Part shown: positions 5,429-48,409 of the stretch, piece by piece | Layout: each line of letters starts with the position of its first letter | Position numbering within the stretch: position 1 is the stretch's first letter | Sequence record: MH494197.1 | Direction: 5' to 3' (one strand) | Origin: Escherichia phage CMSTMSU | DNA length: 64,000 nucleotides | Position numbers and translations under genes: made by a program | Notes under the pieces: model-generated | Seen by the model: the letters and a program-made list of their open reading frames with translations, nothing else | Told to the model about the DNA's origin: nothing | Database searches by the model: none

Positions 5429-5537
5429 TGTTAAGCCCTTTTAGTAGTGAACTTTCATTTATTTATTAATGGCAACGAAATGTATTTTGTACTGATAAAT
5501 ATTGGTATATGACATTAACTCATACAAGGGAAATATT

Positions 5538-6705: not shown

Positions 6706-8770
6706 ATGATGCCAACATTCAAGTTGGGTAAACGTGGTGCTTCTATTAATTTTGTAAACGATTCTGTCGCAATCAAAGACTTTTAGGCGAAACGTTCCTA
6801 CCTGTTAAGGTGGGAACTCCTAATGACGATGATTCCGCAGTAAACGTTAGGTATCTTGAAGATAACCCAAATGCTTTATTTGGCGTACTTCCACCAACAA
6901 ATGACATTGGTAAAAATAACAACACTTATTTTCAAGTTGATTCTGAGGGTATTGTTGATATCTTTGCAAAACAAATGATGTTTGGGTAAAATCATTATAC
7001 ATTAATAAAAATGTCCTTTCCAGTGTTAACGGTGCTGATTATATCGGACTTATTACTGGAGGAACACTTCAACAGGCACAGTTTTACATAACACCAGAAG
7101 AGTTTGGTGCAAAGGTGATGGCATCACTGATGACACGGCGGCGTTAACGCATGTGCAGTTTATGCTAAAGAACACAAAATCCAAATTCAAGCTGGTGGTA
7201 ATTATCGTATCAGAACTGCTGTTTATTTGAATGATATTCAATGGTTTGGTGGTACAATCACTGGTAACGGTGGCACAATGGTATCGGTACTGAATAGTAC
7301 AATCCAACAAGCAACATTAACAGGATGTTATTTAAAATTCTTTGGTGGTAATGGTAAATTTTATTTTAATAAATTTATTAATATTACAAGTACTGCTGCA
7401 TTTCTAATGCAAGGTATGACTGAATCAGGTACTATCGACTTCTGCTTTAATGAAATGACACAATGTAAGTACGGTGTTCTTCAGCAAGGCACTGGTGAAA
7501 AATGACAGTTGGGCGTTATTCATACAACCACATCCATGATATATATGGTGATGCAATTGAATTGAACGTAGTCAACTCACATTACCCAGACGGATTTGTA
7601 ATAGAAGGCAACTTGATTGAAAACGTAGATGGTACAAATGCACCAATTCCTCTTTCAAACTGGGGTATTGGTATCGGTGTTGCAGGTTCTGGTCCTTATG
7701 ATGTGAATGCTGATGATTCACAATATGTAAAAAATTCGTTATAAAAATAACCGCTTGTACAATGTCCGTCAATGTATTCACGTTGAGTTGGGTAAAGACT
7801 TTAAAATTCTCAATAATGAAGTTTATCCATCAACGTTGGTATCAATTGGTACTGGTTTGACAACCGCTGGTGTAATTACTTATGGTTCTGTTGATTTTAT
7901 TATTGATGGCCTATCTGGGCATCTATTAAATGATCCATCAGTAACTAACCGTATGGTTTCTATTAACTGGGGCGTAACATCTGGTAAATTTGCTGGTCCT
8001 CCACGAAACTTTAAATTATGTAATCTCCACATTCCTGAGTCGTCTATTATTGTGTATACTTCAGGCTCTGATAATTGGCTAAATACTACTGAACTTTCTA
8101 ATATTACATGTAGTAGAATTCAATGGCGTGGATTGCCGTCATCTTCCAAGTTTAATAATATCAGTACTAAAGAACTTGATGTTATTGGACAACACCTTGC
8201 AACTGAAGGTGAAGGAGGGGCTTATATACTCGCTCTAAATATACATATACCAACTGGACTAATTGTGTTGTTCAAGATGATTGTAACATATCAAAATATA
8301 GTTTCTCAAGAATGTATGTTGACCGTATTGACCAATCATCTAATAACTTTAAAGTAACCACTGCAATTGATGGAACGGGTCATCGTGGACCTGTAGTAAT
8401 ACCTGTAGTTGAACAGTATTACGTGCCTTATGATGTTTTTCCGGTGGGAGATATTTCCCAACAGGAACAATTATCCATAAACAATCAGGTGGAAAATTTA
8501 TTGTTACAGTAGGTGGTTCTTTCTTTGGTCGATATGACACAATTAGACAAACAGTTGCAGGACAAACTTATATCGAAGCATTGGGTGTATCATGGGGTGA
8601 TAATCAATATGCTAAAGCTGCTGGAACCGAAATCCTAATCACAGGAGCAGGGGAAAATGGCGAAGATTTAAAACATATATCACTAGAGCAGTTTATGTTG
8701 TTAATAATGCGTATCGTATCGATATTGCCGATCCGATTGTTACTGCTACCGCAGCAGGGCATTATTGAAA
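6706..8770 (+). CDS. Tailspike / tail fibre with pectate-lyase-3-type beta-helix (putative polysaccharide depolymerase), frameshifted
   Basis: Translation around 7090-7150 gives ITPEEFGAKGDGITDDTAAL, the signature start of pectate_lyase_3 tailspikes. N-terminal module MMPTFKLGKRGAS is shared with the gene at 8850. Track pieces 7227..7505, 7502..7744, 7755..8357, 8312..8512. Confidence 0.55.
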
Positions 8771-8849: not shown

Positions 8850-9715
8850 ATGAAGAAGACCTTCATACTTGGTAAAAATGGTGCACAAATTGCCACTAAT
8901 GGTAATGTTGTTCAAATCCAGAACTACACGGGTACACAACTTCTTCCTGTTTCAGCAGGTGACCCAACCGCAAATACACACTTGGTTACATTGGGTTATT
9001 TGAATACACATAGCGGTGGTGGTGGCGGTTCCGGTATTTTACGTGGAACTATTGCACCATCTGAATCAATCGGTGTAGATGGTGACGCTTACTTCTTAGT
9101 TGACAGTACTAATATTATTCAGATCTATATTAAAGACCTTGGTGTTTGGAAGCCTCTCCAAAGCACAACTCCGTACTGATAGTTCTTACGTTACTACTGA
9201 AATCGTTCCTGTATCGGCATTTACATTAGTTCACGGAACAACAGATCAATATACTTATTCTTTACCTGAATCAGTACATGGTCGTGGTCCAGATATTATG
9301 GTTCAGCTACAGGGTGATCCCGGTAACATCCCACTTGACACTGTATTCCAAACTAACGTCACTGTGAGTGGTATTGGTGACATTACGATTGATGTTATTG
9401 GTCAAATTACTGAATACACAAGTGTCAAAGTCAACATCATAGGAGCAACAACAATGACAGTACCTTATAGTAAATTAATTAATATAGCAGATTGGGTAGC
9501 ATCTGGTGATGATTACACCATTACTGTTCCAGCGTCAGAACATAACCAAACACCTGACAATTTGTATATTTCTATATATTCAAATAAAACACCGCAGTAC
9601 AGCAGCATCACCATTTGAACTGGTAATAACCGAAACTCAAATTGATGCAAGTGGTAATGTTACATTCACTTCTGATGAAGCGTTTAGTGGTAAAATAGTA
9701 ATTTCCGGTAAATAA
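8850..9715 (+). CDS. Short tail fibre-like protein with shared N-terminal module and poly-Gly linker, two frameshifts
   Basis: MKKTFILGKNGAQ parallels the 6706 gene start; GGGGGSG linker; continues in ORFs 9100..9618 and 9506..9715. Confidence 0.45.
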
Positions 9716-9721
9716 AAAATA

Positions 9722-9756
9722 ATCCAGACTGCGTTCCATCGAGTCTGGATTTTTAT
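9722..9756 (+). terminator. Rho-independent terminator
   Basis: Hairpin TCCAGACT...AGTCTGGA followed by TTTTT. Confidence 0.6.
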
Positions 9757-9765
9757 ATTAATAAC

Positions 9766-9786
9766 TAAATATATGTATATTAACAA
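9766..9786 (+). promoter_or_regulatory. Conserved 21-nt promoter-like motif TAAATATATGTATATTAACAA, 46 nt upstream of the fibre A start
   Basis: Near-identical copy at 14840..14860 with identical spacing to the fibre B ATG. Confidence 0.4.
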
Positions 9787-9829
9787 GGTCAAATGTATTT
9801 TATGCTTTTGCCTATTTGGAGGGAACTAA

Positions 9830-12800
9830 ATGTACTCGATTAAAACAGATCTAGATATAACTGGTGGTGCAACGGTTGGTAAAGATCTTCTTGTGAAAGG
9901 CGATGCAGTATTCAATAAAAATCTAACAGTTAATGGAACTGTAACTTTTGCTGACGCTGTATTCACTGCAATTGAAGCAGGAACTGTAGACATTTCATCT
10001 ACACTAGATGTTGCTGGTAAAGCATCATTGAATGGTGGAATTGAAGTTCATGGTAATTCCGTAATTGGTAATTTGCCTGTTGGCTCTGATACTGCAACGA
10101 TTAATTCTAATGCACAATTCCAAAGCCCAGTATCAATGGCAGGTAACCTAACACAAACCGCTGGCACTGCTGTACTAAAAGATACCCAAGTGGCATCAAT
10201 GGATGTTCTTGGAACTTCTTCATTTAAAGGTAATATTACTGCTGAAACTGGCACTACCGCAGCATTTGACAAAATAACTGCAACTGATGCAACATTCACA
10301 AACACTGCAACTACTGATATCACATCAACTGGAACTGCAAACTTTAAAGATGTGAATATTTCCGGTACACTAGGTGGAACATTTAGTCTATCTGATGTTA
10401 ATGCAACAACTCTAACTGTTTCTGGTTTAACCAGTCTACAAGGTGGTGTTACATTAGGTTCCAACATTACTGGTGTGAATAGTAGTGCAAACTTCCGTGA
10501 TATTAAAATTGGTTCCAATGCTGCAAACACTAACTACCGTTTGAGCTTTAACTATTCTGCTCCAAGTCTTCGCCCAACTGTAATTCTACAGAACGAAATC
10601 CAATCAGAATTGATGTCTCCAGCTACCCTAAGTGTATTGAAAACTGCATCTTTTGGTGATTCGTCATTATCCACTTTTGGTATTACTGGTAATGGTCTAA
10701 ACAAACTAGATTACCTAACAGTATCTGGTAACTCTGTTCAAGATCCAGCAACTCCACTATTACAAGTAACTTCAGGTAAAACTAAAGTTCATGATTTCGA
10801 AGTAACAGGAACTGCAACTATTCCTAACATTGAAAGTACTGGTACTGCTAATTTTAATAACATCAACGTATCTGGTACACTCGGCGGTACTTTCAGTCTT
10901 GATGATATTGAAGCAAACACTCTAACTGTTTCTGGATTAACTAGCCTTGTTGGTGGTGTAACTTTAGGTGCTGATATTTCCGGTGCTAATAGTACTGCTA
11001 ATTTTAAAGCAGTAAGTTTAGGACAAAACGCAGCCGATGCTAACGTTAAGTATGGTTTTGCTTATTCTGCCCGGTGCTCGTCCAACTGTAATTCTACAAA
11101 ATGAAATTCAGTCTGAACTAGTATCTCCAGCAGTACTAAATGTACAAAAACTGCTACCTTTGGTGATGCATCTCTTGCAACCTATGGTATCACAGGTAAC
11201 GGTCTAAACAAACTAGATTATCTATCTATTACTGGTAATGGTACACAAAGTCCAGCTACCCCACAACTACAAGTAGCTGGTAAATCAGTACTAAATGATG
11301 TTGAATTCACTGGTACTGTAACTGGTCTAACTGTTGATGTGAGTGGACAAGATCTAACTCCTAAATCAGTAGTTGCTGCTGAAGCAATCAAAGGTCAAAC
11401 CCTTGAATCAGTTGGTCAAACCACCGTAGGAACTAACCTACAAGTTGGTGGAACTGCTAATGTTGTTGGTGCACTAACTGGTACTGCTGCTACCTTCACT
11501 GGTGATGTAAGTGCTGCTAAAGGTACTTTCAGTGGTGATGTTAGCGTTACTGGTCAAACTGTAACTGTACGTGATTTAGTAGTAACTGGTACAACTACTG
11601 GTGTAACTGCCCAAGCTGATGTTGATGGTCTTGATATCGCCCCAAATAAAGTTGATGTTACAACAACACTATCTGTTGCTGGGGACACTACTTTAGCTGG
11701 CCTAACTGCTAGTTCAGTAACCAGTACTGGTGATGTTACTGGTGCGTCTGTATCTGGTAATACAGTAACTGCGGCTGGTGCACTATCTGGTGGTTCTCTT
11801 GCAGTAACTGGTGCTGGTTCTATGGCTTCACTAACTGTTCCAAGTATTACTGGTGACACTACTTTTGCTAATAACGTAACTATTACTGGAACACTAACTC
11901 CGAGTAGTATAGATTTAAGCACTACTGATGTAAGTGCTGCTTCTTTAACAACTACTGGTAACGTAACTGTTGGTGGTTCTCTTGCAGTAACTGGTGCTAT
12001 TGATTTGTCTGCTGCTGATGTAGTAACAAAATCAGTTAGTGCAACTAACCCAAGTACATTTGGTGTAATTAATGCATCTTCTGTTGTCGCAACTGGTGAC
12101 GTTTCAGGTGGCACTCTAACTACTACTGGTGCAGCGAAAGTAGGAACACTAACTAGTACTGGTGTAGTATCTGGTTCGCGTTTGTCTTCTGGTACTGCAA
12201 CAATCTCAACTTCTGTAACAGTTCCAACTTTACAAGCTGAAGCTGCTGGTGCTGGTACACTAAATCTAGCAAGTAATGTTGTCGCGGCAAAGATCTAACT
12301 GTCACTGGTGTATTCAAACCTGAAGGTGGTCTTGACCTAACAACTGTTGATATTACTGCAAACTCACTAACTACTACTGCTGATGTTAATGTTGGTGGAA
12401 ACTTAGTAGTTGATGGTACTTTTGACCTAAGTGCTGCTGATGTGTCTGTGAAATCTCTTGCAAGTGCAGAGACAATTACAAGTGCTGGTGTTATTACCGT
12501 TACCGATTCAACCAATACTAGTTCGTTACCTAAAATTACTTCAACTGATGCAACACTCTTTACAGTAAATGCAGGTACTATTAATGCAACTGGCAACAGT
12601 GTACTACAAAGTGTATCAGCTACTCAAGTAACTGCAACTAGTGCTGAATTGACTGGTGTTGGTCTTGGTCTTCAAGTCGATAATGATGCAAACGTTGGTG
12701 GTGCATTATCTGTTGGTGGAATCGCAACTGTTGGTTCTTTAACAACAACTGCTGCTTCTCTTAATATTGCAAAAATACTGCAATCACTGGTGATTTAGCT

Positions 12801-14759
12801 GTATCTGGCACACTAACTGCTGGTTCAATCGACCTAAGCAATACTGATGTAACCGTTAAATCTCTTGATTCACTAGGTAACGCACACATTGCTGGTGACC
12901 TAACTGTAGATGGTGCATTCGACTTAAGTGCAACTAACCTTGTAGCTGCAAGTCTAGCAAGTACTGGTTCTACTACTGTTGGAACTGATCTAGTACTAAC
13001 AACTGGTGTTGTGACTGGTAGCCCAGCTATCTCTGGTAATACAACAATCGGTGGAACTCTTGGTGTAACTGGTGCTGTTAACCTAACTGATATTGTTAAT
13101 ATCGGTAAGAAAGTAACAGTGAGTACTGGTGGTATTCAGGTAGTTGATGGTGGTATCAATACTAACACAATTAACGTTTCTGGTGCTTCTACTCTAGCAG
13201 GAACTTCCATTACTGGAACTTTAGGTGTAACTGGTGCTTCTACTCTAGCAGGTGTATCTGCGACATCACTAACAGTTTCTGGTGACAGTACTGTTCAGAA
13301 ACTAACTGTCCAAGGTGAATTGATCCCACAAGGTGGTCTTGACCTAAGCGGTGCAGACATTACTGCTAATAGTCTAACTACTGCAACAACTATCAATGCA
13401 ACTGGCCTAAGTACTCTAAGTGGTGGTGTTAGTACTTCTACTGTGACTGCATCTGGTCTAGCAACTGTTGGAAGTTTAACTTCTACTGCAAACGCATCAG
13501 TTGGTGGCAATTTGGGTGTAACTGGAACTCTAGATGTTACTGGTGCTACTACTGTATCTTCACTAACAGCTACTGGTGCAGTGAAAACTGGCACAACCCT
13601 AACTGTTGGTACTCCAGTTGGTGAACAACCTGAAACTGTACAGATCATTCCAGATACTTATATTGCTGGTAAATTGCGTGTAATCGGCGGTATTAACGCT
13701 GAAATCGACGTAAGTGGTCAAACACTAGAACCATATGCAATTGAAGCTGCTGCAACACTATCTGCTGTTGGTAACATTACTTCTGGTGCAACCATCGTTT
13801 CTAAAGCTGCAACAATTGGTGATGTTGGTTCACAAAACAACAACCTAACTGTTAATGGTAACGTAGTAACTAATGGTGACTTCACCGTTACTGGTGTACT
13901 AAATGCACAATTGAACCAAGCAGATTCCGATGTAGCTGTTAAATCTTTAACTGCAACTAATAACGTTGCGGCTGGTACTTCAATCACTGCTGGAACATCC
14001 ATCACTGCATCAGGCTTACTAAAAGGTAATTCGTTAGAAGTCACCACTACTGGTTCATTTGGTGGTGCAGTAACTATGTCAAGTGGTGCAAACATCACTG
14101 GTACTGTTGGTATCACTGCTGGTGACCTAACAGTAGGTGGTAATATCTCTGCAACTGGGACTGCTGGATTCGGTGCAACAACCGTTTCTACCATTACAAC
14201 ATCAGGTTTAGCTACACTTGCAAGTGCATCTGTAACTGGTGCTCTAACTGTAGGTGGTACATTAACTGCAAATGGTAACACTGTGATTGGTGATGCTGCT
14301 GCTGATACTTTAACTGTAAATGCAACATCGACATTTAAAGAGAACGCAACATTTGATAAGAACCTAACAGTGACTGGTTCTATTAACACCACCACTGCAA
14401 ACTTCACCACAAACAACATGGTAACTAAGAAATATTCTGTTATCCCTGCTAGTGTTACTGCTTCTACTGCTGCTGTAGGTGGTACTTGGACACCAGATGG
14501 TACTACTAACGTATATCGCTTAACTCTTGACCAAAGTGTTACAATGGATTCCATCGCGGGTCTAATTGGTAGTGGTCAAGCATGTTCAGTGTATATCTAT
14601 GTAACTCCATCTGTTGCTGATACTACTTTCACCTTCGGTGGTGCATACTCTGTAGTTTCTGGTACAGTAAGTGCTGTAGTTGGTCAAACAAGTATTATCC
14701 AAGTAATCTATGATGGTTTCAGTACTGTGTTTGATACCTTCGTTGCACAACGTGTATAA
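9830..14759 (+). CDS. Giant repeat-rich fibre protein A (~1640 aa), reading frame broken at about 11100, 12300 and 12800
   Basis: Track ORFs 9830..11104, 11339..12298, 12442..12798 and 13011..14759 all carry V/T/G/S/A-rich short repeats (xTVxGxxTLxG). RBS GGAGGGA. N- and C-termini are paralogous to fibre B. Confidence 0.6.
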
Positions 14760-14778
14760 CATTTTAAATTAATAATTA

Positions 14779-14806
14779 AAGCCAACTAAAATAGTTGGCT
14801 TTTTCT
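14779..14806 (+). terminator. Rho-independent terminator
   Basis: AAGCCAACT-AAAAT-AGTTGGCTT followed by TTTTCTTT. Confidence 0.6.
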
Positions 14807-14839
14807 TTGTATTAGATAATAGTGTTTTGTGAATTAAAC

Positions 14840-14860
14840 TAAATATAAGTATATTAACAA
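14840..14860 (+). promoter_or_regulatory. Second copy of the conserved promoter-like motif (TAAATATAAGTATATTAACAA)
   Basis: One mismatch to 9766..9786; 46 nt upstream of the ATG at 14906. Confidence 0.4.
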
Positions 14861-14905
14861 AAGATGGGTTATGAATATATAGTTCATCGTTATAGGAGGG
14901 ACTCT

Positions 14906-17900
14906 ATGTACTCGATTAAAACGGATCTTGATGTATCTGGTAATTCCACGGTAGGTAAGGATCTTTTGGTCAAAGGTAATGCAGTATTCAGTAATGACCT
15001 AACGGTTAATGGGGAAGTGTCTTTTGCTAACGCAGTATTCACTGCAATTACCGCTGGTTCTGTGAATGTCACAGGTGCATTGGATGTTGCTGGTAAGGCA
15101 ACCTTATCCGGTGGTGCTGATGTTTCAGGTGCTGCGACATTTGCAGGAAACATTACTGCTGCTGACGGCACAACTGCAAAATTTGATAACTTAGAAGCTA
15201 ATTCAGGATCATTTAATTCTGTTGAATCAACTGATATTACTTCAACTGGCACAGCAACTTTTAAAGATGTAAACATTTCTGGTACACTTGGTGGTACTTT
15301 TAATCTTTCTGATATTAATGCTACAACACTTAATGTGTCTGGTGCTTCAGCACTAACTGGTTCAGTCACATTGGGTGCAAATATCACTGGTCTTGCAAGT
15401 ACTGCAAACTTCCGTGATATTCGTATCGGGCCTAATGAAGAAGGTCAAGCATATAGACTAAACTTTGGTTACACCGTTCGGACAACGACCAACCGTTCTT
15501 CTACAGAACGAAGTTCAATCCGAACTAATGTCTCCTGCTAAGTTGAATGTTCTACAAACTGCAACATTTGGTGATTCTTCACTTTCAACTTACGGTATTA
15601 CAGGTAATGGTTTAAACAAATTAGATTATGTAACTATTTCTGGTAACGCAATTCAATCACCAACCACTCCTTTACTTGAAGTAACTAAAGGTAAAACTAA
15701 AGTTGTTGATTTAGAAGTGACTGGCGTAGCAACTATTCCTAATATCGAAAGTTCTGGTACTGCAAACTTTAACAACATCAACGTATCTGGTACTATTGGT
15801 GGTAGTTTTGATTTAGATGATATCCAAGCAACAACATTATCAGTATCCGGTGCTTCAGCACTAACTGGTGCAGTTACATTGGGTGCAAACATCACTGGTC
15901 TAGCAAGTACTGCAACATTCAAAGCAATCAATTTGGGTCAAAATACCGCTGATGCTAACGTTAAGCTAGGTTTTGCATATACTGCACCTAGTGCACGTCC
16001 AACAGTCTTGTTAGCAAACGAAGTTCAATCTGAACTAATGTCTCCTGCTAAGTTGAACGTTCTACAAACTGCAACCTTCGGTTCTGCTGCACTATCTACC
16101 TATGGTATTACTGGTAATGGTCTAAACAAATTAGATTATCTAACAATTACTGGTAACGCAACACAAAACCCTGCTACTCCACAACTTCAAGTTGGTGGTA
16201 AAGCAATTCTTAATGATGTTGAATTTACAGGTACTGTAACTGGCCTAACTGTTGATGTGAGTGGACAAGATCTAACTCCTAAATCAGTAGTTGCTGCTGA
16301 AGCAATCAAAGGTCAAACTCTTGAATCAGTTGGTCAAACAACTGTAGGTTCATCTCTACAAGTTGGTGGTACTGCAACTGTTACTGGTGCATTATCTGCT
16401 GCCGCTGGTACTTTCAGTGGTGATGTTAGTGGTTCTAAAGGTATCTTCAGTGATAGCGTATCCGGTACAAGTGCAACCTTTACTGGGGATGTTAGCGGTG
16501 ATAACGCAACCTTTAGTGGCGATTTATCTGCTGTAGCTGGCACTTTCAGTGGTGATGTAACCGTAACTGGTCAAACAATCACTGTTAAAGACTTGGTAGT
16601 AACTGGAACTTCAACTGGTGTAACTGCAATCGCTGACGTTGACGGTCTTGATATTGCTCCAAACAAAGTTGATGTTACAACAACTCTATCTGTTGCTGGT
16701 GAATCAACTCTTGCTGGTGTTACAGCAACTTCAATCAATAGTACTGGTGCAATTGCAGGTACTGCAATTTCTGGCTCTACTATTACAGCAACTGGTGAAA
16801 TTTCTGGTGCATCATCTGTAGTAACTGGTCTTTCTAAATCTGGTAGCGTTGAAACTGGTGCTCTAAAGGCATCTTCTGTTGAAACTGCAATCATTAGCAA
16901 CACTGCTGGTGTGTCAATAACAAACAACACTTCAATTGCAGGTAATCTATCTGTAACTGGAACTGTTACCCCGTGCAATTGACCTAAGTACTACTGATAT
17001 TGATGCTAAGTCTCTAACAACTACTGAAGGTGCTAACATTGGTGGTGACCTAGTTGTTGCAGGTACAGTTGATCTAAGTGCTGCTGACGTTGCTGTTAAA
17101 TCTCTAACCAGTACTGGTGCAGTTATTAGTTCTGAAGGTACAGTAAGTAGTGTTCTACCTAAACTTTCCAGTACTGAAGCTAATATTACCACAGTAACTG
17201 CAACCACTGCAAATGCTACCACACTAAATGTAACTGGTACATCAACTCTAGCTGGTGTTAACGCTTCTGGTGCTATTACTTCTGCAACTAACATTACCGC
17301 TACTGGTGTATTAAAGGTGCATCTGTTGAAACTGCGTCAATCAGCAATGCTGATGGTGTAGCAATTAACAATAACACTACAATCACTGGTAATTTGGACG
17401 TATCTGGGACATTGACCCGTGCAATTGACCTAAGTACTACTGATATTAGTTCTAAGTCTCTAACCACAACTGAAGGTGCTACAATTGGTGGCGATCTTGT
17501 GGTAGCAGGTACTGTTGATCTAAGTGCTGCTGATGTGTCGGTGAAATCTCTTGCAAGTGCAGAGACAATTACAAGTGCTGGTGTTATTACAGTTTCGGAT
17601 ACAGTGAATTCTAGCACTCTACCAAAACTAATTACTACTGATGCAACTATTGGTGCTGTCCATGCAGCTACTATTGAAACAACTGGTTCAAGTACACTAA
17701 AACAAGTATCTGCTACTGAAGTAACAGCTACAAGTATTGTACTAAATTCAGTTGGTGAAGGTTTACGTGTTGACAATAATGCAAACATTAATGGTATATT
17801 AAGTGTTAATAATATTACTTCTACCAATGATACTATTGCAATTGCGAAAAGTGCTGCTATTACTGGTGATCTGACCGTATCTGGAACTGTTACCCCGGTG

Positions 17901-20608
17901 CAATTGACCTAAGTACTACCGATATTAGTTCTAAATCCTAAGTACTACTGAAGGTGCTACAATTGGTGGTGACCTAGTTGTTAATGGTTCAATTGATTTA
18001 AGTTCTTCCAATGTTTCAGCAATTACCCTTGCTAGTTCTGGTAATACTACCGTTGGTGGTAACCTAGTACTAACAACTGGTGTTGTGACTGGCAGCCCAT
18101 CTGTATCTGGTAACCTTTCAGTTGCAGGTACTGCGGCAGTAACTGGTGCAACTACCTAACTGATATCGTAAATATCGGTAAGAAAGTAACTGTAAGCACT
18201 GGTGGTATTCAAGTAGTTGCAGGTGGTATTAATACCGACGCTATATTAGTATCCGGTGATACAACTTTAAACAACACTACTGTAAACACTACCTTAAATG
18301 TAACTGGTCAAAGTACAGTTGCTGCACTAAGTGCTGCATCTTTGAATGTATCTGGTGATAGTACTGTTCAAAACTAACAGTTGAAGGTGAATTGGTTCCA
18401 CAAGGTGGTATCGACCTAACTGGTGCAGATATTTCTGCTAATAGTCTTGCAACTGCTTCAACAATCACTGCAACTGGACTAAGCACACTAAGTGGTGGTG
18501 TAAGTACTACTAATGTTACTGCATCTGGTACAGTGAATGCTGGTAGTTTGGATGTTACTAACAACGCAACCGTTGGTGGTAATTTGGGTGTAACTGGTTC
18601 ATTAACTTCTGGACCATTGAGTGTAACAGGCATTGCGAATATTACTGGTGTAACAACTGTTGGTTCATTGGTTTCCGGTGCTGTATCTGGTAGTACTGGT
18701 ACATTTAGTTCAACATTAGGTGTAACTGGTGCAGCTACATTTGACAATGACGTAACTGTTGAAGGTGTATTCACCCCAGCAGGTGGTTTAGACCTAACAA
18801 CTTCTGATATTACAGCTAAGAGTTTGTCAGTATCTGAAACTATTCACTCTGATGGTGCAGCTTCCTTTGGTGGTAACACAACAGTAGGTGGTACATTGGG
18901 TGTAACTGGTGCAGTAACTGCTCCATCGGCAACCCTAAGCGGTACTGGTACTGCACTAGCAGTAACTAATAATGCAACTATTGGTGGTACATTGGGTGTA
19001 ACTGGTCAAGCAACACTTGGTTCTATAGTAACTTCTGGTGTATCTGCAACAAGTGGCTCTTTCAGTACTACTCTTGGCGTTACTGGTGCTGCGACATTTG
19101 GAAACGATGTAACTGTAGTTGGAACACTAACTCCGGTAGCTTAGATCTAACTGGTGCAGATATCTCTGCTAAAACACTAACTCTATCTGAAACATTAAAT
19201 GCGACAGGTAATACTACCCTTGGTGGAACATTAGGTGTAACTGGTTTAGCAACAATTGGTGGAACACTAACGTCTGGTGCAGTAACTGCTCCATCTGCAA
19301 CCTTGAATGGTTCAGGAACTGGTCTAGCAGTAACTAACAACGCAACCGTTGGTGGTACATTAGGTGTAGTTGGTCAAACAACACTAGGTTCTGTTAAAAC
19401 TGGTGCAACTCTAACAGTTGGTACACCATTAGGTGAGCAGCCTGAAACTGTACAGATTATGCCAGACACTTATATTGCTGGTAAACTACGTGTTGAGGGT
19501 GGTATTAACGCAGATATCGATGTTGGTGGACAAACACTAGAACCGTTTGCAGTAATAGCATCTGATTCTTTATCTTCTGCTGGTAATATTACTGCTGGTG
19601 CGGCAATTATTTCAAGTTCTGCAACAATTGGTGAAGTCGGTTCACAAAACAACAACCTAATCGTTAATGGTAACGTTGTAAACAACGGTAACTTCACTGT
19701 TACTGGTGTACTAAATGCACAATTGAACCAAGCAGATTCCGATGTAGCTGTTAAGTCTTTGACTGCAACTAACAACGTAGCTGCTGGAACCACATTAAGT
19801 GCAGGTACTGCAATTACTGCTGGTACTTCCATCACTGCAACTGGATTACTTAAAGGTAATACTTTATTACTACTACTGGTTCATTTGGTGGTGCAGTAAC
19901 TATGTCAAGTGGTGCAAACATCACTGGTACAGTGGGTATTACTGCTGGTAACCTAACAGTGGGTGGTGATATCTCTGCAACTGGCACTGCTGGATTCGGT
20001 GCAACAACCGTTTCTACAATTACAACATCAGGTTTGGCTACACTTGCAAGTACATCCGTTACTGGTAACGCAACAGTAGGTGGAACACTAGCAGTAACAG
20101 GAGCACTAACTGCGAATGGTAACGTAACATTAGGTGACGCAGCGGCTGACGTTCTAACCGTTAATGCAACTTCATCATTTAAAGAAAATGCTGTGTTTGA
20201 TAAGGCAGTAACAGTAACTGGTGAACTAACCACTACTAATGCTAACTTAACTACTACAACAGTAACTACCAAAAGTATGATGTAATCCCAACTCAAGTTA
20301 CATCATCAGTAATTGCTCCAACCGGAACATGGACTCCAGATGGTACAAGTAACGTGTACTTCATCACTCTAGACCAAGATACCACGTTGGCTCCAATTAC
20401 TGGCCTAATTGGTGGCGGTAAAGCTGCATCAGTATACATCTATGTTAAACAAGATACAACTGGTAACAGAAACTTTACAACTGATGGTACTTATGCTGTT
20501 GTTGATGGTGAACTAAACAAAACTGCTGGTAGCGTGACCATTTACCAAGTAATTTATGATGGTGTAAGTCCAGTTACTGATTTGTTCATTGCACAACGTA
20601 CTGCTTAA
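14906..20608 (+). CDS. Giant repeat-rich fibre protein B (~1900 aa), several frame breaks
   Basis: Starts MYSIKTDLDVSG with RBS TAGGAGGGA. Pieces 15465..16982, 17394..17912, 18392..19144, 19303..19899, 19902..20285 and 20354..20608. Shares long near-identical nucleotide blocks with fibre A. Confidence 0.6.
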
Positions 20609-21491: not shown

Positions 21492-21540
21492 TATCTAAAA
21501 TAAATACTTAATATATAATCTATTCTGAGGAAATATTTAA

Positions 21541-36441: not shown

Positions 36442-36484
36442 AGCAACCTCTTTTATTTTATAAGGTATTATACTTTATTTAGCA

Positions 36485-37214: not shown

Positions 37215-37286
37215 TATATTCTCCTGTTATGGAATGACATCTTTATATTATTTATCTATTACTTACACTTTTATTGAAGTATCTCA

Positions 37287-37593: not shown

Positions 37594-40244
37594 ATTGAGT
37601 CTTTTCAATACGAATAGGTACGTAAATGAAGTTGATAGACTTAGTAGGTTGGATTGCAATATCCATCCAAAGTTCGTTACGGTCAATACGTTCAGAAGTG
37701 TTGTTACTTTCGTCACAAACTACTGCGAAGTTGTATAGACCTTGTTGTTGAACGATTTCAGCTAGAAGCTATTCACTACACCACTGAATTCCTGACGAGT
37801 ACTTGGAGTATTCAAACGGAATAGGAATGGTTCAGAGATGATTTCTAGTTGACGACGAATGTAAACAACCAAACGAGCAACGTTAACACGGCTTAGTGCA
37901 GAGGTTTGGTTAGCAGATAGTGTTTTATCACCATATACTAGCAAGCCACGGTTAGGACGCATTGCAATTGGGTTAATGTTGTTGGTATACATCACGTCAC
38001 GTTGACCTTGGTTGTATACTACTGGTTGATATTCACCTTCACTGTTAATGAAACCAGTACTTGCAGCGTTGGTTACAACACCACGAGTAGTACCAGCAGG
38101 TGGATACCATACAAAACTAACACTATCACTGTACGCATAGGTACGCATTGCAACAGTACTGCCGGAACCGCTACTTCTTCACCATCAACGTTAGTACTTA
38201 GACACCAGCCCATGTACTGAGCAGCATAATCATATGCAGAAGTACGGCCTACTGAACCATTACTTGGTGCGTTATTCGCGTTAGTAGCCCATTCTTGAAC
38301 TGCACTACCGTTTCCGGTTGGGTTCAAACGAGCAGGTACATCAGTTACAATGAACGCTGTTTCTTTACGATCAGTGTTTAGGGTAATACATTCATCTAGA
38401 GTTTCTACATAACCGGAACACAGATTAGGTTGAAGTCGATGAATTCAGAACGGATATCATCATTACCGACGATTACAGCAGCTAGTGCTTCAACGATTAG
38501 TTTGCGTTGTGCTGCACGACCGAATAGACCTGCACCATCAAGACTAACACCACTAACAACTTGCCATTGACCATTAACCATTTTCTTAACAACACCTTCG
38601 GTATTACCGAGGTCAATTGCAAGCATACCATTCTGATAAAGAGCAGCAGAAGCAACTTGTTCAGGGAAGTTAAAGTCAGCGAAAATCATACCGTTTAGAG
38701 TACTTTGGTCAGTATTGTCTAGTTTAACCCACTCACCATCAACGTTACGATAGAAATCATAACCATCAATGCCTTGAGATAGAGGGCGTACCCAAATTAG
38801 GCGGTCAGCCGATGGCTCATCAACTTGAACGTATTTGTTATCTTCTTGTACTAGATCCCATTCGTCATTTGCAACATCTGCAATGTACATGGTAACAGTT
38901 AGGTTATCTGAATTACCGAAATCATACCAAATAGTACCGTCTTTAGCAATACTACGTGGAACAGAAGAGCTAACACGCAAGTTATTAACGTTAACTAGAG
39001 AATAGTTGTTACTATCTACAGTTAGTTTAGCTAGTTCATTCGCTGCAAAAATATCATCACCGCTTTGGGTAACTTTAAAGCTATAACCTTTGGTGTTTGT
39101 AACTACCAAACCGCCATTAGATTCACGTTTGAATTTGAATCCATCATTGATAAGATCAGCACTAACATTTAGATTATCGATGATAGTTTGAGTATTAATT
39201 ACGCCACCTTGTGGTACTGCAAGTACTTTAACAGATTTGTTTAGGTAAGCGAAAGTCAAATAACTATTTTCACCAGCTTGCTCAATAACAGTTTCACCTA
39301 GTGGTACTGCTGGAGCACTAATTGCTGATAGTTTTGCACTTTGAATATAGAAAGAGAAACTCTTACTATCGTCATCAAAACGGCAAGCAATATAACTGTT
39401 GTTTAGTACACCACTCTTAGCTTCAACTTCTTGGAAAGAATTACCAGTATATGCTGGAACGATATTCCAAACTTGAGTTAGAGATGCATAACGTTTTAGA
39501 ACAAAGCGAGTGCCAAAATAGTTTGAACCATTTTGAGTATAACCATCACGAATCCATACGTTACCTTGTTCAACAGTTGAACCAACTGGAACTTTGTTGA
39601 TTGGTGATAGATAAGTTTCAACCTGTACTAGACCAGATGCTGCACGTTTGTACATAAGCATTTGACCATTACTTGGCTTATAACGTAGAACTAGATCATC
39701 AACGTTTAGACCAACTAGGCTAACATCGTCAACTTCTTCAGAACTTACGATGGTAACAGGCTTCAATTGCCAGTCATAGAAGCTGCTTGGGCTGTCTTTC
39801 TTAGCAACATAAGCTTCAATTTGTGATTGAGCAGCATCAAACCATAGAGTACCATTTGGTACTGGGCCAGTTGGTGCAGTTGCACTTGGTGATAGTTGAG
39901 CCAAATCGATATCAGCACGAATAACATATGCACGGTTGGTGATACCTAGATAAGAATATACAGCATGTAGACCATATTCGTTTAGTTCGTCACCTTGAAC
40001 AACTGAACCATTGTTCATTTGGAAAATTGGTGAGCCAAATGTATCTAGTGAGCTTTTCTGTGATGTTAGTAGCTGTAGTTTACCAGCGTTTGCTTTAGTG
40101 GTTCCGCAGCGATTGCACTGCTACCGGAACAAGTTTGTCTTCAGCAGTAGCGATTACAAATAGTGGTACTGTGCGAGCAGCAGCAGTACTCATACTTTCA
40201 TCAGTTACTGAAATGGAAACGCCGGTGAGAGTAGATCTCCTGCC
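37594..40244 (-). CDS. Tail sheath protein (~880 aa), frame broken at least 3 times
   Basis: N-terminus MAGDLLSP resembles T4 gp18 MTLLSPG; C-terminus YNFAVVCDESNNTSERIDRNELWMDIAIQPTKSINFIYVPIRIEKTQ matches the T4 gp18 C-terminus (YRVVCDTTNNTPSVIDRNEFVATFYIQPARSINYITLNF). Track ORFs 38405..40018 and 37762..38148. Confidence 0.85.
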
Positions 40245-42121: not shown

Positions 42122-42328
42122 AAAAAGCACCTCATTAATGTTTATATACATTATTTAGAGGTGCTAATAGTTATTTGGAATTATACAAGCAATACAAGTA
42201 TACCATAGGAGCAAAATGTTCGGTATCAACTAAGTATATTAACTGGGTGTCATATATACCGTACAAATCTCGAAATTTATCTCTGTACAGCAACAATGAC
42301 TTATTGTTGTGTGGGTCAACCCAGTACT

Positions 42329-48077: not shown

Positions 48078-48409
48078 CTTACTCTTCGTCTTCAGTCAAG
48101 TCTTCTTGAACTGGATGTTCGGGTGGTTACGGCGATGCAATTTGATGCTTTTGTCTTTACCTAAGACAGTTTCCATTTTTCAAATGAATCACCAATTGCT
48201 TTGTATAAATCTGCATCATCGGCGGTGACAATCTTACCACCTGATGTTAAAGTTACGGAATATTGATTCTTATGCTCTTTCTTCACATGAACACCGATAT
48301 AAAGTACTGAAGAATCACTAAATTTCGTTAGTACATTTGCTTCTGCATGAATCGCGTCATTGATTGCTGGAGTAATATCAACATTACCTTGGATAACTAA
48401 ATCTAGCAT
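48078..48409 (-). CDS. Hypothetical protein
   Basis: ORF 48161..48409 plus a shifted C-terminus. Confidence 0.3.

What the first reader, a model, noticed from the sequence alone, without database searches (positions are those of the whole stretch)
9766..14860. Conserved 21-nt motif at identical spacing upstream of both giant fibre genes
TAAATATATGTATATTAACAA (9766-9786) and TAAATATAAGTATATTAACAA (14840-14860) each end 46 nt before the respective ATG, and each follows a rho-independent terminator. The AT-rich TATA-like core resembles the T4-type late promoter (TATAAATA) but is not identical, so this may be this phage's late-promoter variant or an operator. The window has too few clean intergenic regions to define a consensus by eye.
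Basis: seen in the sequence. Interest (0 to 1): 0.45.

Follow-up and report, generated by a model that had tools for sequence, protein, structure and literature searches.

The report
Late promoters of two tail-fibre genes
The repeated 21-base motif is this jumbo coliphage's version of the phage-T4-type late promoter plus the first ten bases of the transcript, placed in front of both large tail-fibre genes; it is a real signal, but of a kind already known.

Summary
The motif is real: 9766-9786 and 14840-14860, 20/21 identical, with no other copy at up to 3 mismatches (0.02 expected). Each follows a strong terminator hairpin. The spacing to the ATG is similar, not identical (44 vs 46 nt), and orthologues vary widely.

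The window is an Asteriusvirus (121Q/Rak2-like) jumbo coliphage, 98.7% identical to Ecwhy_1. The functional core is the motif's 5' end, CTAAATA, not the "TATA-like" middle. In 300 kb of Ecwhy_1, TAAATA is the rarest A/T-only hexamer. Its intergenic copies concentrate, sense-oriented, upstream of virion genes.

In a 200-kb subset, position -1 is A or C and never T, and an A lies 6 nt after the hexamer in 22/32 sites. That matches T4 geometry (TATAAATA at -13..-6). The same class was predicted for phages CBB and GAP32, and CTAAATA for phage Aeh1. Ecwhy_1 encodes a gp55-like late sigma factor.

Predicted starts are A9777 and A14851. The rest of the 21-mer (ATATTAACAA, +1..+10) is conserved among fibre-gene orthologues more than the coding sequence (84% vs 73%). 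Its role is unknown.

Verdict: a new member of a known kind, low to moderate interest. The breaks in the fibre ORFs are deletion artefacts.

The parts
9721..9754 (+). Intrinsic terminator (hairpin 9721-9751 plus T run) ending the upstream structural-protein gene
   Evidence: -15.8 kcal/mol, z -6.4, 0 of 200 shuffles fold as well. The hairpin is kept by compensatory changes in JNE01 and A4 orthologues.
9765..9771 (+). CTAAATA, late-promoter -10-type element of fibre gene 1 (predicted -12..-6)
   Evidence: genome-wide (A/C)TAAATA class before virion genes; 95% mean pairwise identity among six Asteriusvirus fibre promoters.
9766..9786 (+). The 21-mer as reported (copy 1)
9777..9786 (+). Predicted transcription start (A9777) and conserved initial transcribed block ATATTAACAA
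   Evidence: Inferred from T4 geometry (PMC1524935). A at this position in 22/32 sites. Block 84% conserved against 28% for the spacer.
9818..9824 (+). Ribosome-binding site GGAGGGA of fibre gene 1
   Evidence: the GGAGGG core is present in all seven sequences (72% mean identity over the RBS-to-ATG stretch in the six Asteriusvirus sequences)
9830..14759 (+). Fibre gene 1 (orthologue of Ecwhy1_207, 1644 aa), frame-broken in the window by small deletions
14778..14807 (+). Intrinsic terminator after fibre gene 1 (hairpin 14778-14802 plus T run)
   Evidence: -13.3 kcal/mol, z -5.4
14839..14845 (+). CTAAATA, late-promoter element of fibre gene 2
14840..14860 (+). The 21-mer as reported (copy 2)
14851..14860 (+). 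Predicted start (A14851) and initial transcribed block ATATTAACAA
   Evidence: Inferred as for copy 1
14895..14901 (+). Ribosome-binding site GGAGGGA of fibre gene 2
14906..20608 (+). Fibre gene 2 (orthologue of Ecwhy1_208, 1899 aa), frame-broken in the window
5460..5465 (-). TAAATA of another late-promoter candidate (before the structural gene orthologous to Ecwhy1_203), one half of a divergent pair
   Evidence: Conserved in 121Q, JNE01, A4 and Erwinia phage Hallingskeid.
5496..5501 (+). TAAATA of a late-promoter candidate before the tail/structural gene orthologous to Ecwhy1_204
21501..21506 (+). TAAATA of a late-promoter candidate before the structural gene orthologous to Ecwhy1_210
36476..36481 (-). 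TAAATA of a late-promoter candidate before a structural gene (Ecwhy1_226)
37249..37254 (-). TAAATA of a late-promoter candidate before a structural gene (Ecwhy1_227)
   Evidence: gene identity
40297..40302 (-). TAAATA of a late-promoter candidate before the tail sheath gene
42152..42157 (-). TAAATA of a late-promoter candidate before the neck protein gene

Best explanation
Each 21-mer is a T4-type (gp55-type) late promoter plus the first ten transcribed bases of a tail-fibre mRNA.

Late in infection, host core RNA polymerase carrying the phage's gp55-like sigma factor recognises the single element (C)TAAATA at about -12..-6. There is no -35 element. The enzyme melts the entirely A/T stretch downstream and starts at the A six bases after the hexamer (A9777 and A14851). 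The resulting 5' leaders of 53 and 55 nt end in a strong GGAGGGA ribosome-binding site. The terminator just upstream insulates each fibre gene as its own late transcription unit.

The two copies are nearly identical because two constrained blocks sit side by side: the promoter hexamer and the +1..+10 start region. They probably also share descent with the tandem paralogous genes.

Shown: the motif, the terminators, the genome-wide association of TAAATA with virion genes, its avoidance elsewhere, conservation in orthologues, and a gp55 homologue in the close relative. Inferred: which sigma factor reads it, the exact start site, and late timing.
For: (1) The window is an Asteriusvirus, 98.7% identical to Ecwhy_1 and EC.P1.

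(2) In 300 kb of Ecwhy_1, TAAATA is the rarest of the 64 A/T-only hexamers: 154 copies, next 338, median 457. In the 200-kb subset there are 113 copies against 208 expected from a Markov model, and 44 of the 113 lie in the 6.8% of DNA that is intergenic.

(3) 32-35 copies lie sense-oriented within about 120 nt upstream of gene starts. They precede the major capsid, scaffold, protease, portal-operon, baseplate hub and wedge, sheath, neck and three fibre genes, and many 'structural protein' genes.

(4) By genes, 21/63 in the structural module (100-185 kb) carry such a site against 3/124 in the non-structural 185-250 kb region (Fisher p = 8e-9; site and gene totals were tallied by hand). None of 131 genes in 250-300 kb has one. 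The lone + strand structural gene at 7405, in an early-type region, has one 37 nt upstream.

(5) Flank statistics: position -1 is A 21, C 8, G 3, T 0. The base 6 nt after the hexamer is A in 22/32 sites. No informative positions lie upstream. This fits TATAAATA at -13..-6 in T4 (PMC1524935).

(6) In the window itself, TAAATA is the A/T hexamer most often found 20-90 nt upstream of an RBS+ATG+ORF start: 10/37 (27%) against 4.8% pooled.

(7) The same class has been published. Phage CBB Table S7 lists CTAAATATGATATA, CTAAATATAATATA, ATAAATACGGTATA and others before structural genes, and the paper reports the same motif before structural genes of GAP32 (PMC5259590). Phage Aeh1 has the late consensus CTAAATA from -12.

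(8) Ecwhy1_188 matches phrog_12791 'sigma factor for late transcription' (1e-152) and phrog_234 (1.5e-16). T4 gp55 is in phrog_234 (2.9e-69) and also hits phrog_12791. Direct BLASTP gives 25% identity over 121 aa, E = 3e-4.

(9) Footprint across six Asteriusvirus fibre promoters, as mean pairwise identity: CTAAATA 95%, -5..-1 55%, +1..+10 84%, spacer 28%, coding sequence 73%.
Against: There is no transcript mapping for any Asteriusvirus, so the start site and late timing rest on analogy.

The gp55-like gene lies outside the window (about 24 kb upstream in Ecwhy_1).

The T4 co-activators gp33 and gp45 were not identified. The CBB authors found none, and my PHROG scan of five candidates found a clamp loader but no clamp. 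Activation may therefore differ from T4.

The two bases that complete the T4 octamer (TA at -13/-12) are absent here (AC). The perfect TATAAATA does not occur anywhere in the window.

The generic promoter model does not explain why +1..+10 is conserved more than the coding sequence.
Confidence: 0.85

Rival explanations
1. The conserved bases beyond the generic promoter are an operator for a phage DNA-binding protein. That protein would co-regulate the two fibre genes, for example by delaying or tuning them relative to other late genes. The candidate site is the near-palindrome AATATA-NN-TATATT spanning -9..+5, and/or ATATTAACAA.
For: The 14-bp stretch has perfect 6-bp inverted arms in both copies (read directly). 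The 121Q/JNE01 version keeps 6 of 7 symmetric pairs. The full 21-mer occurs only at the two fibre genes in 300 kb. The +1..+10 block is 84% conserved against 28% for the spacer. A third, non-paralogous fibre gene (Ecwhy1_172) has a similar start block, TAAATAtagtaTatattaatca.
Against: In all-A/T sequence, 6 of 7 symmetric pairs arise by chance about 6% of the time. The symmetry decays in A4, JNE01 fibre 2 and Hallingskeid. No candidate regulator was identified. Other late promoters (the 574 and 569 orthologues) also keep their start regions across species, so conservation to about +10 is not specific to the fibres.
Confidence: 0.08
2. The 21-nt identity is only a neutral remnant of the tandem duplication that produced the two fibre genes, or a product of gene conversion between them. 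On this view the sequence has no function beyond chance resemblance to a promoter.
For: The two genes are tandem paralogues with the same N-terminus.
Against: Between the paralogues, the sequence on both sides of the block is unalignable (28% identity in the spacer) while the block is 20/21 identical. The block persists in orthologues whose coding DNA is only about 73-75% identical. The hexamer is part of a genome-wide, oriented, gene-class-specific signal.
Confidence: 0.03
3. It is a promoter read by a different holoenzyme: host sigma-70 (TTAACA as a -35 with a downstream -10), or the phage's second, RpoD-like sigma factor.
For: The consensus scan finds TTAACA-18-TATAGT (10/12) at 14854-14883. 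Asteriusviruses carry an additional RpoD-like sigma gene (Ecwhy1_4 remnant; fEgEco12 gp519).
Against: Sigma-70-like hits in the region are fewer than in shuffles (12 against 16.2). Copy 1 has no usable -10 at 16-18 nt after TTAACA (read). In 121Q the RBS begins about 9 nt after the motif, which leaves no room. A distinct class, GAGACAAA-N14-TATAAT, already marks the replication genes and is the likelier target of sigma-70-family factors.
Confidence: 0.04

Closest known systems
Phage T4 late promoters (TATAAATA at -13..-6, read by gp55 with gp33 and the gp45 clamp)
   Same: A single A/T-rich -10-type element with no -35. It is located directly upstream of virion genes. The TAAATA core is identical. 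The preferred start lies 6 nt after the element. The phage encodes a gp55 homologue.
   Different: The first two bases of the octamer are not conserved: (A/C) precedes TAAATA, and the fibre sites have AC. The gp55 homologue is 312 aa against 185 aa, with an N-terminal extension and only 25% identity. gp33 and gp45 counterparts were not found, so clamp-dependent activation is unproven.
Predicted 'promoter 3' (ATAAATA) of Rak2-like jumbo phages CBB and GAP32 (PMC5259590, Table S7)
   Same: The same phage group and the same word, (A/C)TAAATA followed by A/T-rich sequence, found upstream of structural genes. Listed sites such as CTAAATATAATATA are near-matches to the fibre motif.
   Different: That prediction was made for other genera (Pectobacterium and Cronobacter hosts). 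I found no promoter analysis for Asteriusvirus in the searchable literature, and no promoter is annotated at this site in the records I viewed. The conserved +1..+10 block at fibre genes is not described there.
Aeromonas phage Aeh1 late promoters (CTAAATA from -12; PMC1524935)
   Same: The same heptamer, with C at -12, as at both fibre genes. Aeh1 likewise has a strongly diverged gp55.
   Different: Aeh1 is a true T4-like phage (Straboviridae). Here C is the minority base at that position (8/32) and A is commoner.

Membership tests
T4-type (gp55-dependent) late promoter | -10-type element matching TATAAATA or its accepted variants (the core TAAATA) | tested here: met
   CTAAATA at 9765-9771 and 14839-14845. 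The CTAAATA variant is documented for Aeh1, and -13 is poorly conserved in several T4-like phages.
T4-type (gp55-dependent) late promoter | No conserved -35 element | tested here: met
   Information content is 0.28 bit or less at every position from -10 to -2 relative to the hexamer in 32 aligned sites.
T4-type (gp55-dependent) late promoter | Occurs genome-wide upstream of late (virion) genes and not early genes | tested here: met
   Tested in the 98.7%-identical relative Ecwhy_1: 21/63 genes in the structural module against 3/124 in 185-250 kb, p = 8e-9, and 0/131 in 250-300 kb. In the window itself, 10/37 TAAATA copies lie before gene starts against a 4.8% background.
T4-type (gp55-dependent) late promoter | The word is avoided elsewhere in the genome | tested here: met
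   TAAATA is the rarest A/T-only hexamer in 300 kb (154 against a median of 457). It is second rarest in the window, after A6/T6.
T4-type (gp55-dependent) late promoter | The phage encodes a gp55-family sigma factor | tested here: met
   Ecwhy1_188 matches phrog_12791 (1e-152) and phrog_234 (1.5e-16). T4 gp55 gives reciprocal hits, and BLASTP gives E = 3e-4. The gene is outside the window, so its presence in this phage is inferred from 98.7% identity and synteny. Pfam and a PDB sequence search gave nothing.
T4-type (gp55-dependent) late promoter | Activation through gp33 and the gp45 sliding clamp | tested here: inconclusive
   A clamp loader is present (phrog_168, 1.7e-78), but no clamp or gp33 was recognised among five candidates. 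The CBB authors also found none.
T4-type (gp55-dependent) late promoter | Transcripts start about 6 nt downstream of the element, late in infection | not testable with these tools
   The only support is indirect: A in 22/32 sites at the predicted +1.
Rak2-like jumbo-phage 'promoter 3' (CBB/GAP32) | (A/C)TAAATA followed by A/T-rich sequence within 100 bp upstream of structural genes | tested here: met
   Direct comparison with CBB Table S7 sequences and with the site list.

The most novel reading that the evidence does not exclude
The fibre genes of Asteriusviruses form a sub-class of late promoters. A conserved start-region block (GTATAT/ATATTAAC, -2..+10, partly palindromic with the promoter) would be a separate regulatory element. 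It could be an operator or a 5'-leader signal that sets the timing or stoichiometry of fibre synthesis apart from other late genes.
Probability: 0.1. Interest if true: 0.4.

Novelty: new member of a known kind. Interest (0 to 1): 0.2.

Why it matters
It gives Asteriusvirus (121Q-like) jumbo coliphages a usable late-promoter definition: (A/C)TAAATA-N5-A, with no -35 element. This allows late transcription units to be annotated. It shows that each large fibre gene is an insulated terminator-promoter-gene cassette. It also extends the reach of the gp55-type late system from T4-like phages to this jumbo-phage group, on statistical evidence.

Practically, it marks the boundaries to respect when swapping fibre genes for host-range engineering. 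It does not open a new question, apart from the unexplained conservation of the first ten transcribed bases.

Tried and rejected
(1) Stop-codon reassignment as the cause of the broken fibre ORFs. No single reassignment restores them. The breaks are 1-2 nt deletions relative to Ecwhy_1.

(2) An unbiased collection of fibre-gene upstream regions from IMG/VR, using the N-terminal 200 aa as query. No relatives were confirmed, so I used GenBank phage records instead.

(3) A sigma-70 promoter reading. Hits are no more frequent than in shuffles, and the reading is incompatible with copy 1 and with 121Q.

(4) A structured 5' leader. Predicted leaders fold no better than shuffles (z -0.5 and -0.3), and the first 9-12 nt are unpaired.

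(5) Pfam and PDB sequence searches for the late sigma factor. Nothing significant was found. PHROGs and BLASTP against T4 gp55 gave the link.

(6) A search for a gp45-like clamp next to the clamp loader. It was not recognised.

(7) RNA-seq papers on relatives. PA5oct reports only sigma-70-like motifs (TATAATA and TTGAC), and its text describes no late-promoter class. The RaK2 paper does not mention promoters, and the fEgEco12 paper does not either.

(8) About 54 kb of Ecwhy_1 (300-354 kb) was not fetched. The statistics cover 85% of that genome.
Full report
**Observation**

A search allowing three mismatches finds only these two in the 64-kb window, against 0.02 expected from dinucleotide shuffles.

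Both sites follow convincing intrinsic terminators. The first hairpin is at 9721-9751 (-15.8 kcal/mol, z = -6.4). The second is at 14778-14802 (-13.3 kcal/mol, z = -5.4). Each is followed by a T run.

Both genes begin MYSIKTDL behind a GGAGGGA ribosome-binding site, with ATGs at 9830 and 14906. The distance from the motif end to the ATG is therefore 44 and 46 nt. That is similar, not identical.

**Context**

The window is an Asteriusvirus (121Q/Rak2-like) jumbo coliphage. It is 98.7% identical to Ecwhy_1 and EC.P1 and about 74% identical to 121Q over the fibre region.

In Ecwhy_1 the two genes are intact 'long tail fiber proximal subunit' genes of 1644 and 1899 aa. In the window they are split across frames. 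An alignment of 9000-16000 with Ecwhy_1 shows 13 indels, all of them deletions in the window. They are single bases in A, T or G runs, or two bases inside CCWGG. These look like systematic sequencing errors, not biology.

**What the motif is**

I assembled 300 kb of Ecwhy_1 and examined the upstream regions of its genes. One word recurs in front of virion genes: TAAATA.

- It is the rarest of all 64 A/T-only hexamers: 154 copies in 300 kb on both strands, against 338 for the next and a median of 457.
- In the 200-kb subset it occurs 113 times against 208 expected from a maximal-order Markov model. 44 of those 113 copies lie in the 6.8% of DNA that is intergenic.
- 32-35 copies lie sense-oriented within about 120 nt upstream of a gene start.
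- They precede the major capsid, scaffold, prohead protease, portal-operon, baseplate hub and wedge, tail sheath, neck and three fibre genes, and many proteins annotated 'structural'.
- By genes, 21/63 in the structural module (100-185 kb) carry such a site, against 3/124 in the adjoining non-structural region (Fisher p = 8e-9; totals tallied by hand).
- None of 131 genes in 250-300 kb has one.
- The single + strand 'structural protein' gene embedded in an early-type region (7405-8562) has one 37 nt upstream.

Aligning the 32 sites gives further detail. The base before the hexamer is A 21, C 8, G 3 and never T, whereas T is the commonest base there in the 69 coding-region copies. The base six positions after the hexamer is A in 22/32 sites. 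Nothing upstream is informative, so there is no -35 element.

In the window alone, TAAATA is the A/T hexamer most often found 20-90 nt before an RBS+ATG+ORF start: 27% against 4.8% pooled. The in-window sites include those before the sheath, neck and several structural genes.

**Comparison with known systems**

T4 late promoters are TATAAATA at -13..-6. The -13 position is loose in many relatives, and phage Aeh1 uses CTAAATA from -12 (PMC1524935).

For the Rak2-like phage CBB a third promoter class, ATAAATA plus A/T-rich downstream sequence, was predicted at 35 sites upstream of structural genes, and the authors report the same motif before structural genes of GAP32. CBB Table S7 lists CTAAATATGATATA, CTAAATATAATATA, ATAAATACGGTATA and others.

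The fibre motif's 5' end, CTAAATA, is therefore the promoter element. With T4 geometry the starts fall at A9777 and A14851, which is exactly the position enriched for A.

Ecwhy_1 encodes a gp55-family sigma factor, Ecwhy1_188. It matches phrog_12791 'sigma factor for late transcription' (1e-152) and phrog_234 (1.5e-16). T4 gp55 is in phrog_234 (2.9e-69) and cross-hits phrog_12791. Direct BLASTP gives 25% identity over 121 aa, E = 3e-4. That gene lies outside the window.

I could not recognise gp33 or gp45 counterparts, and the CBB authors could not either. Whether activation is clamp-dependent as in T4 is therefore open.

**Why 21 bases and not 7**

I aligned the upstream regions of fibre orthologues and paralogues from 121Q, JNE01 (two genes), A4 and Erwinia phage Hallingskeid. 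The footprint is bipartite. Mean pairwise identity among the six Asteriusvirus sequences is as follows:

| Region | Mean pairwise identity |
|---|---|
| CTAAATA | 95% |
| -5..-1 | 55% |
| +1..+10 (ATATTAAC[A/G]A) | 84% |
| spacer to the RBS | 28% |
| first 178 coding bases | 73% |

The spacer to the RBS ranges from about 9 nt (121Q) to 25-34 nt, so distance to the ATG is not a conserved property.

The near-identity of the two window copies thus reflects two constrained blocks lying side by side. It probably also reflects common descent with the tandem duplication.

The full 21-mer is unique to the two fibre genes in 300 kb; the next best match has 5 or more mismatches. A third fibre gene with an unrelated N-terminus, Ecwhy1_172, has a similar start block, TAAATAtagtaTatattaatca. 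Other late promoters also keep their start regions across species.

The predicted leaders have no significant structure. The stretch AATATA-NN-TATATT is an inverted repeat in both copies, but in all-A/T sequence this is weak evidence for an operator.

**Rivals**

- A neutral duplication remnant is contradicted by the unalignable flanks and the cross-species footprint.
- A sigma-70 reading (TTAACA-18-TATAGT at copy 2) fails at copy 1 and in 121Q. A separate class, GAGACAAA-N14-TATAAT, already marks replication genes.
- An operator overlapping the start site remains possible for the extra conserved bases, at roughly one chance in ten.

**Novelty**

This is a new member of a known kind. I found no promoter analysis for Asteriusvirus in the searchable literature. 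No promoter is annotated at this site in the records I viewed; G17 annotates only the terminator. Even so, the class was predicted for sister genera and is a textbook T4-type signal.

The finding is sound but of low to moderate interest. The one loose end is the conservation of the first ten transcribed bases at fibre genes.

Noticed in passing
window 9000-16000 (9173, 9594, 9714, 9750, 9806, 11073, 11146, 12289, 12771, 14806, 14825, 14898, 15480): All 13 indels relative to Ecwhy_1 are deletions in the window. Eight are 1 nt in A, T or G runs, one is 2 nt in an A run, and four are 2 nt inside CCWGG (Dcm) sites. This pattern looks like systematic long-read basecalling error. It breaks both fibre genes, and probably other genes such as the tail sheath (38405-40018 is a fragment), into several ORFs. 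AAAAAA/TTTTTT is also the rarest A/T hexamer in the window, but not in Ecwhy_1.
   Followed up: partly
window 8235-8249 (+): An intragenic copy, CTAAATATAcatAta, with C at -1 and A at the predicted +1. It lies inside the depolymerase-like ('colanic acid-degrading') gene, about 590 nt before the next structural gene. The nine bases CTAAATATA are unchanged in 121Q (L007:5389) and JNE01 (L008:5532) while neighbouring codons vary. The site is absent in A4. It may be an internal late promoter.
   Followed up: partly
window 5460-5501 (both strands): A divergent pair of TAAATA late-promoter candidates, back to back in a 109-nt intergenic region between two structural genes. Both are conserved in 121Q, JNE01, A4 and Erwinia phage Hallingskeid.
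   Followed up: partly
whole window: The perfect T4 late consensus TATAAATA does not occur at all on either strand of the 64-kb window (about 13 expected from base composition; my estimate). In Ecwhy_1 the few copies sit before the major capsid, scaffold and a lysozyme gene, which suggests graded promoter strength.
   Followed up: partly
window 48079-48409 (-): The gene annotated 'putative sigma 54' in Ecwhy_1 is a homologue of ribosome hibernation factor / S30AE (Pfam PF02482, 7e-11). It is not a sigma factor.
   Followed up: partly
window 25995, 44897, 56956 (- strand; first base of each site): GGGACA-N16-GATATAAT sites. They belong to a second promoter-like class (GAGACAAA-N14-TATAAT) seen upstream of many replication and nucleotide-metabolism genes in Ecwhy_1. 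The class is reported for CBB and GAP32 as a TGAAACG '-35' variant, and these are probably middle promoters.
   Followed up: no
L002:18012-18950 (-) (Ecwhy_1, outside the window): The gp55-like late sigma factor is 312 aa against 185 aa in T4. It has an N-terminal extension of about 150 aa with no family match. The co-activators gp33 and gp45 were not recognisable.
   Followed up: partly
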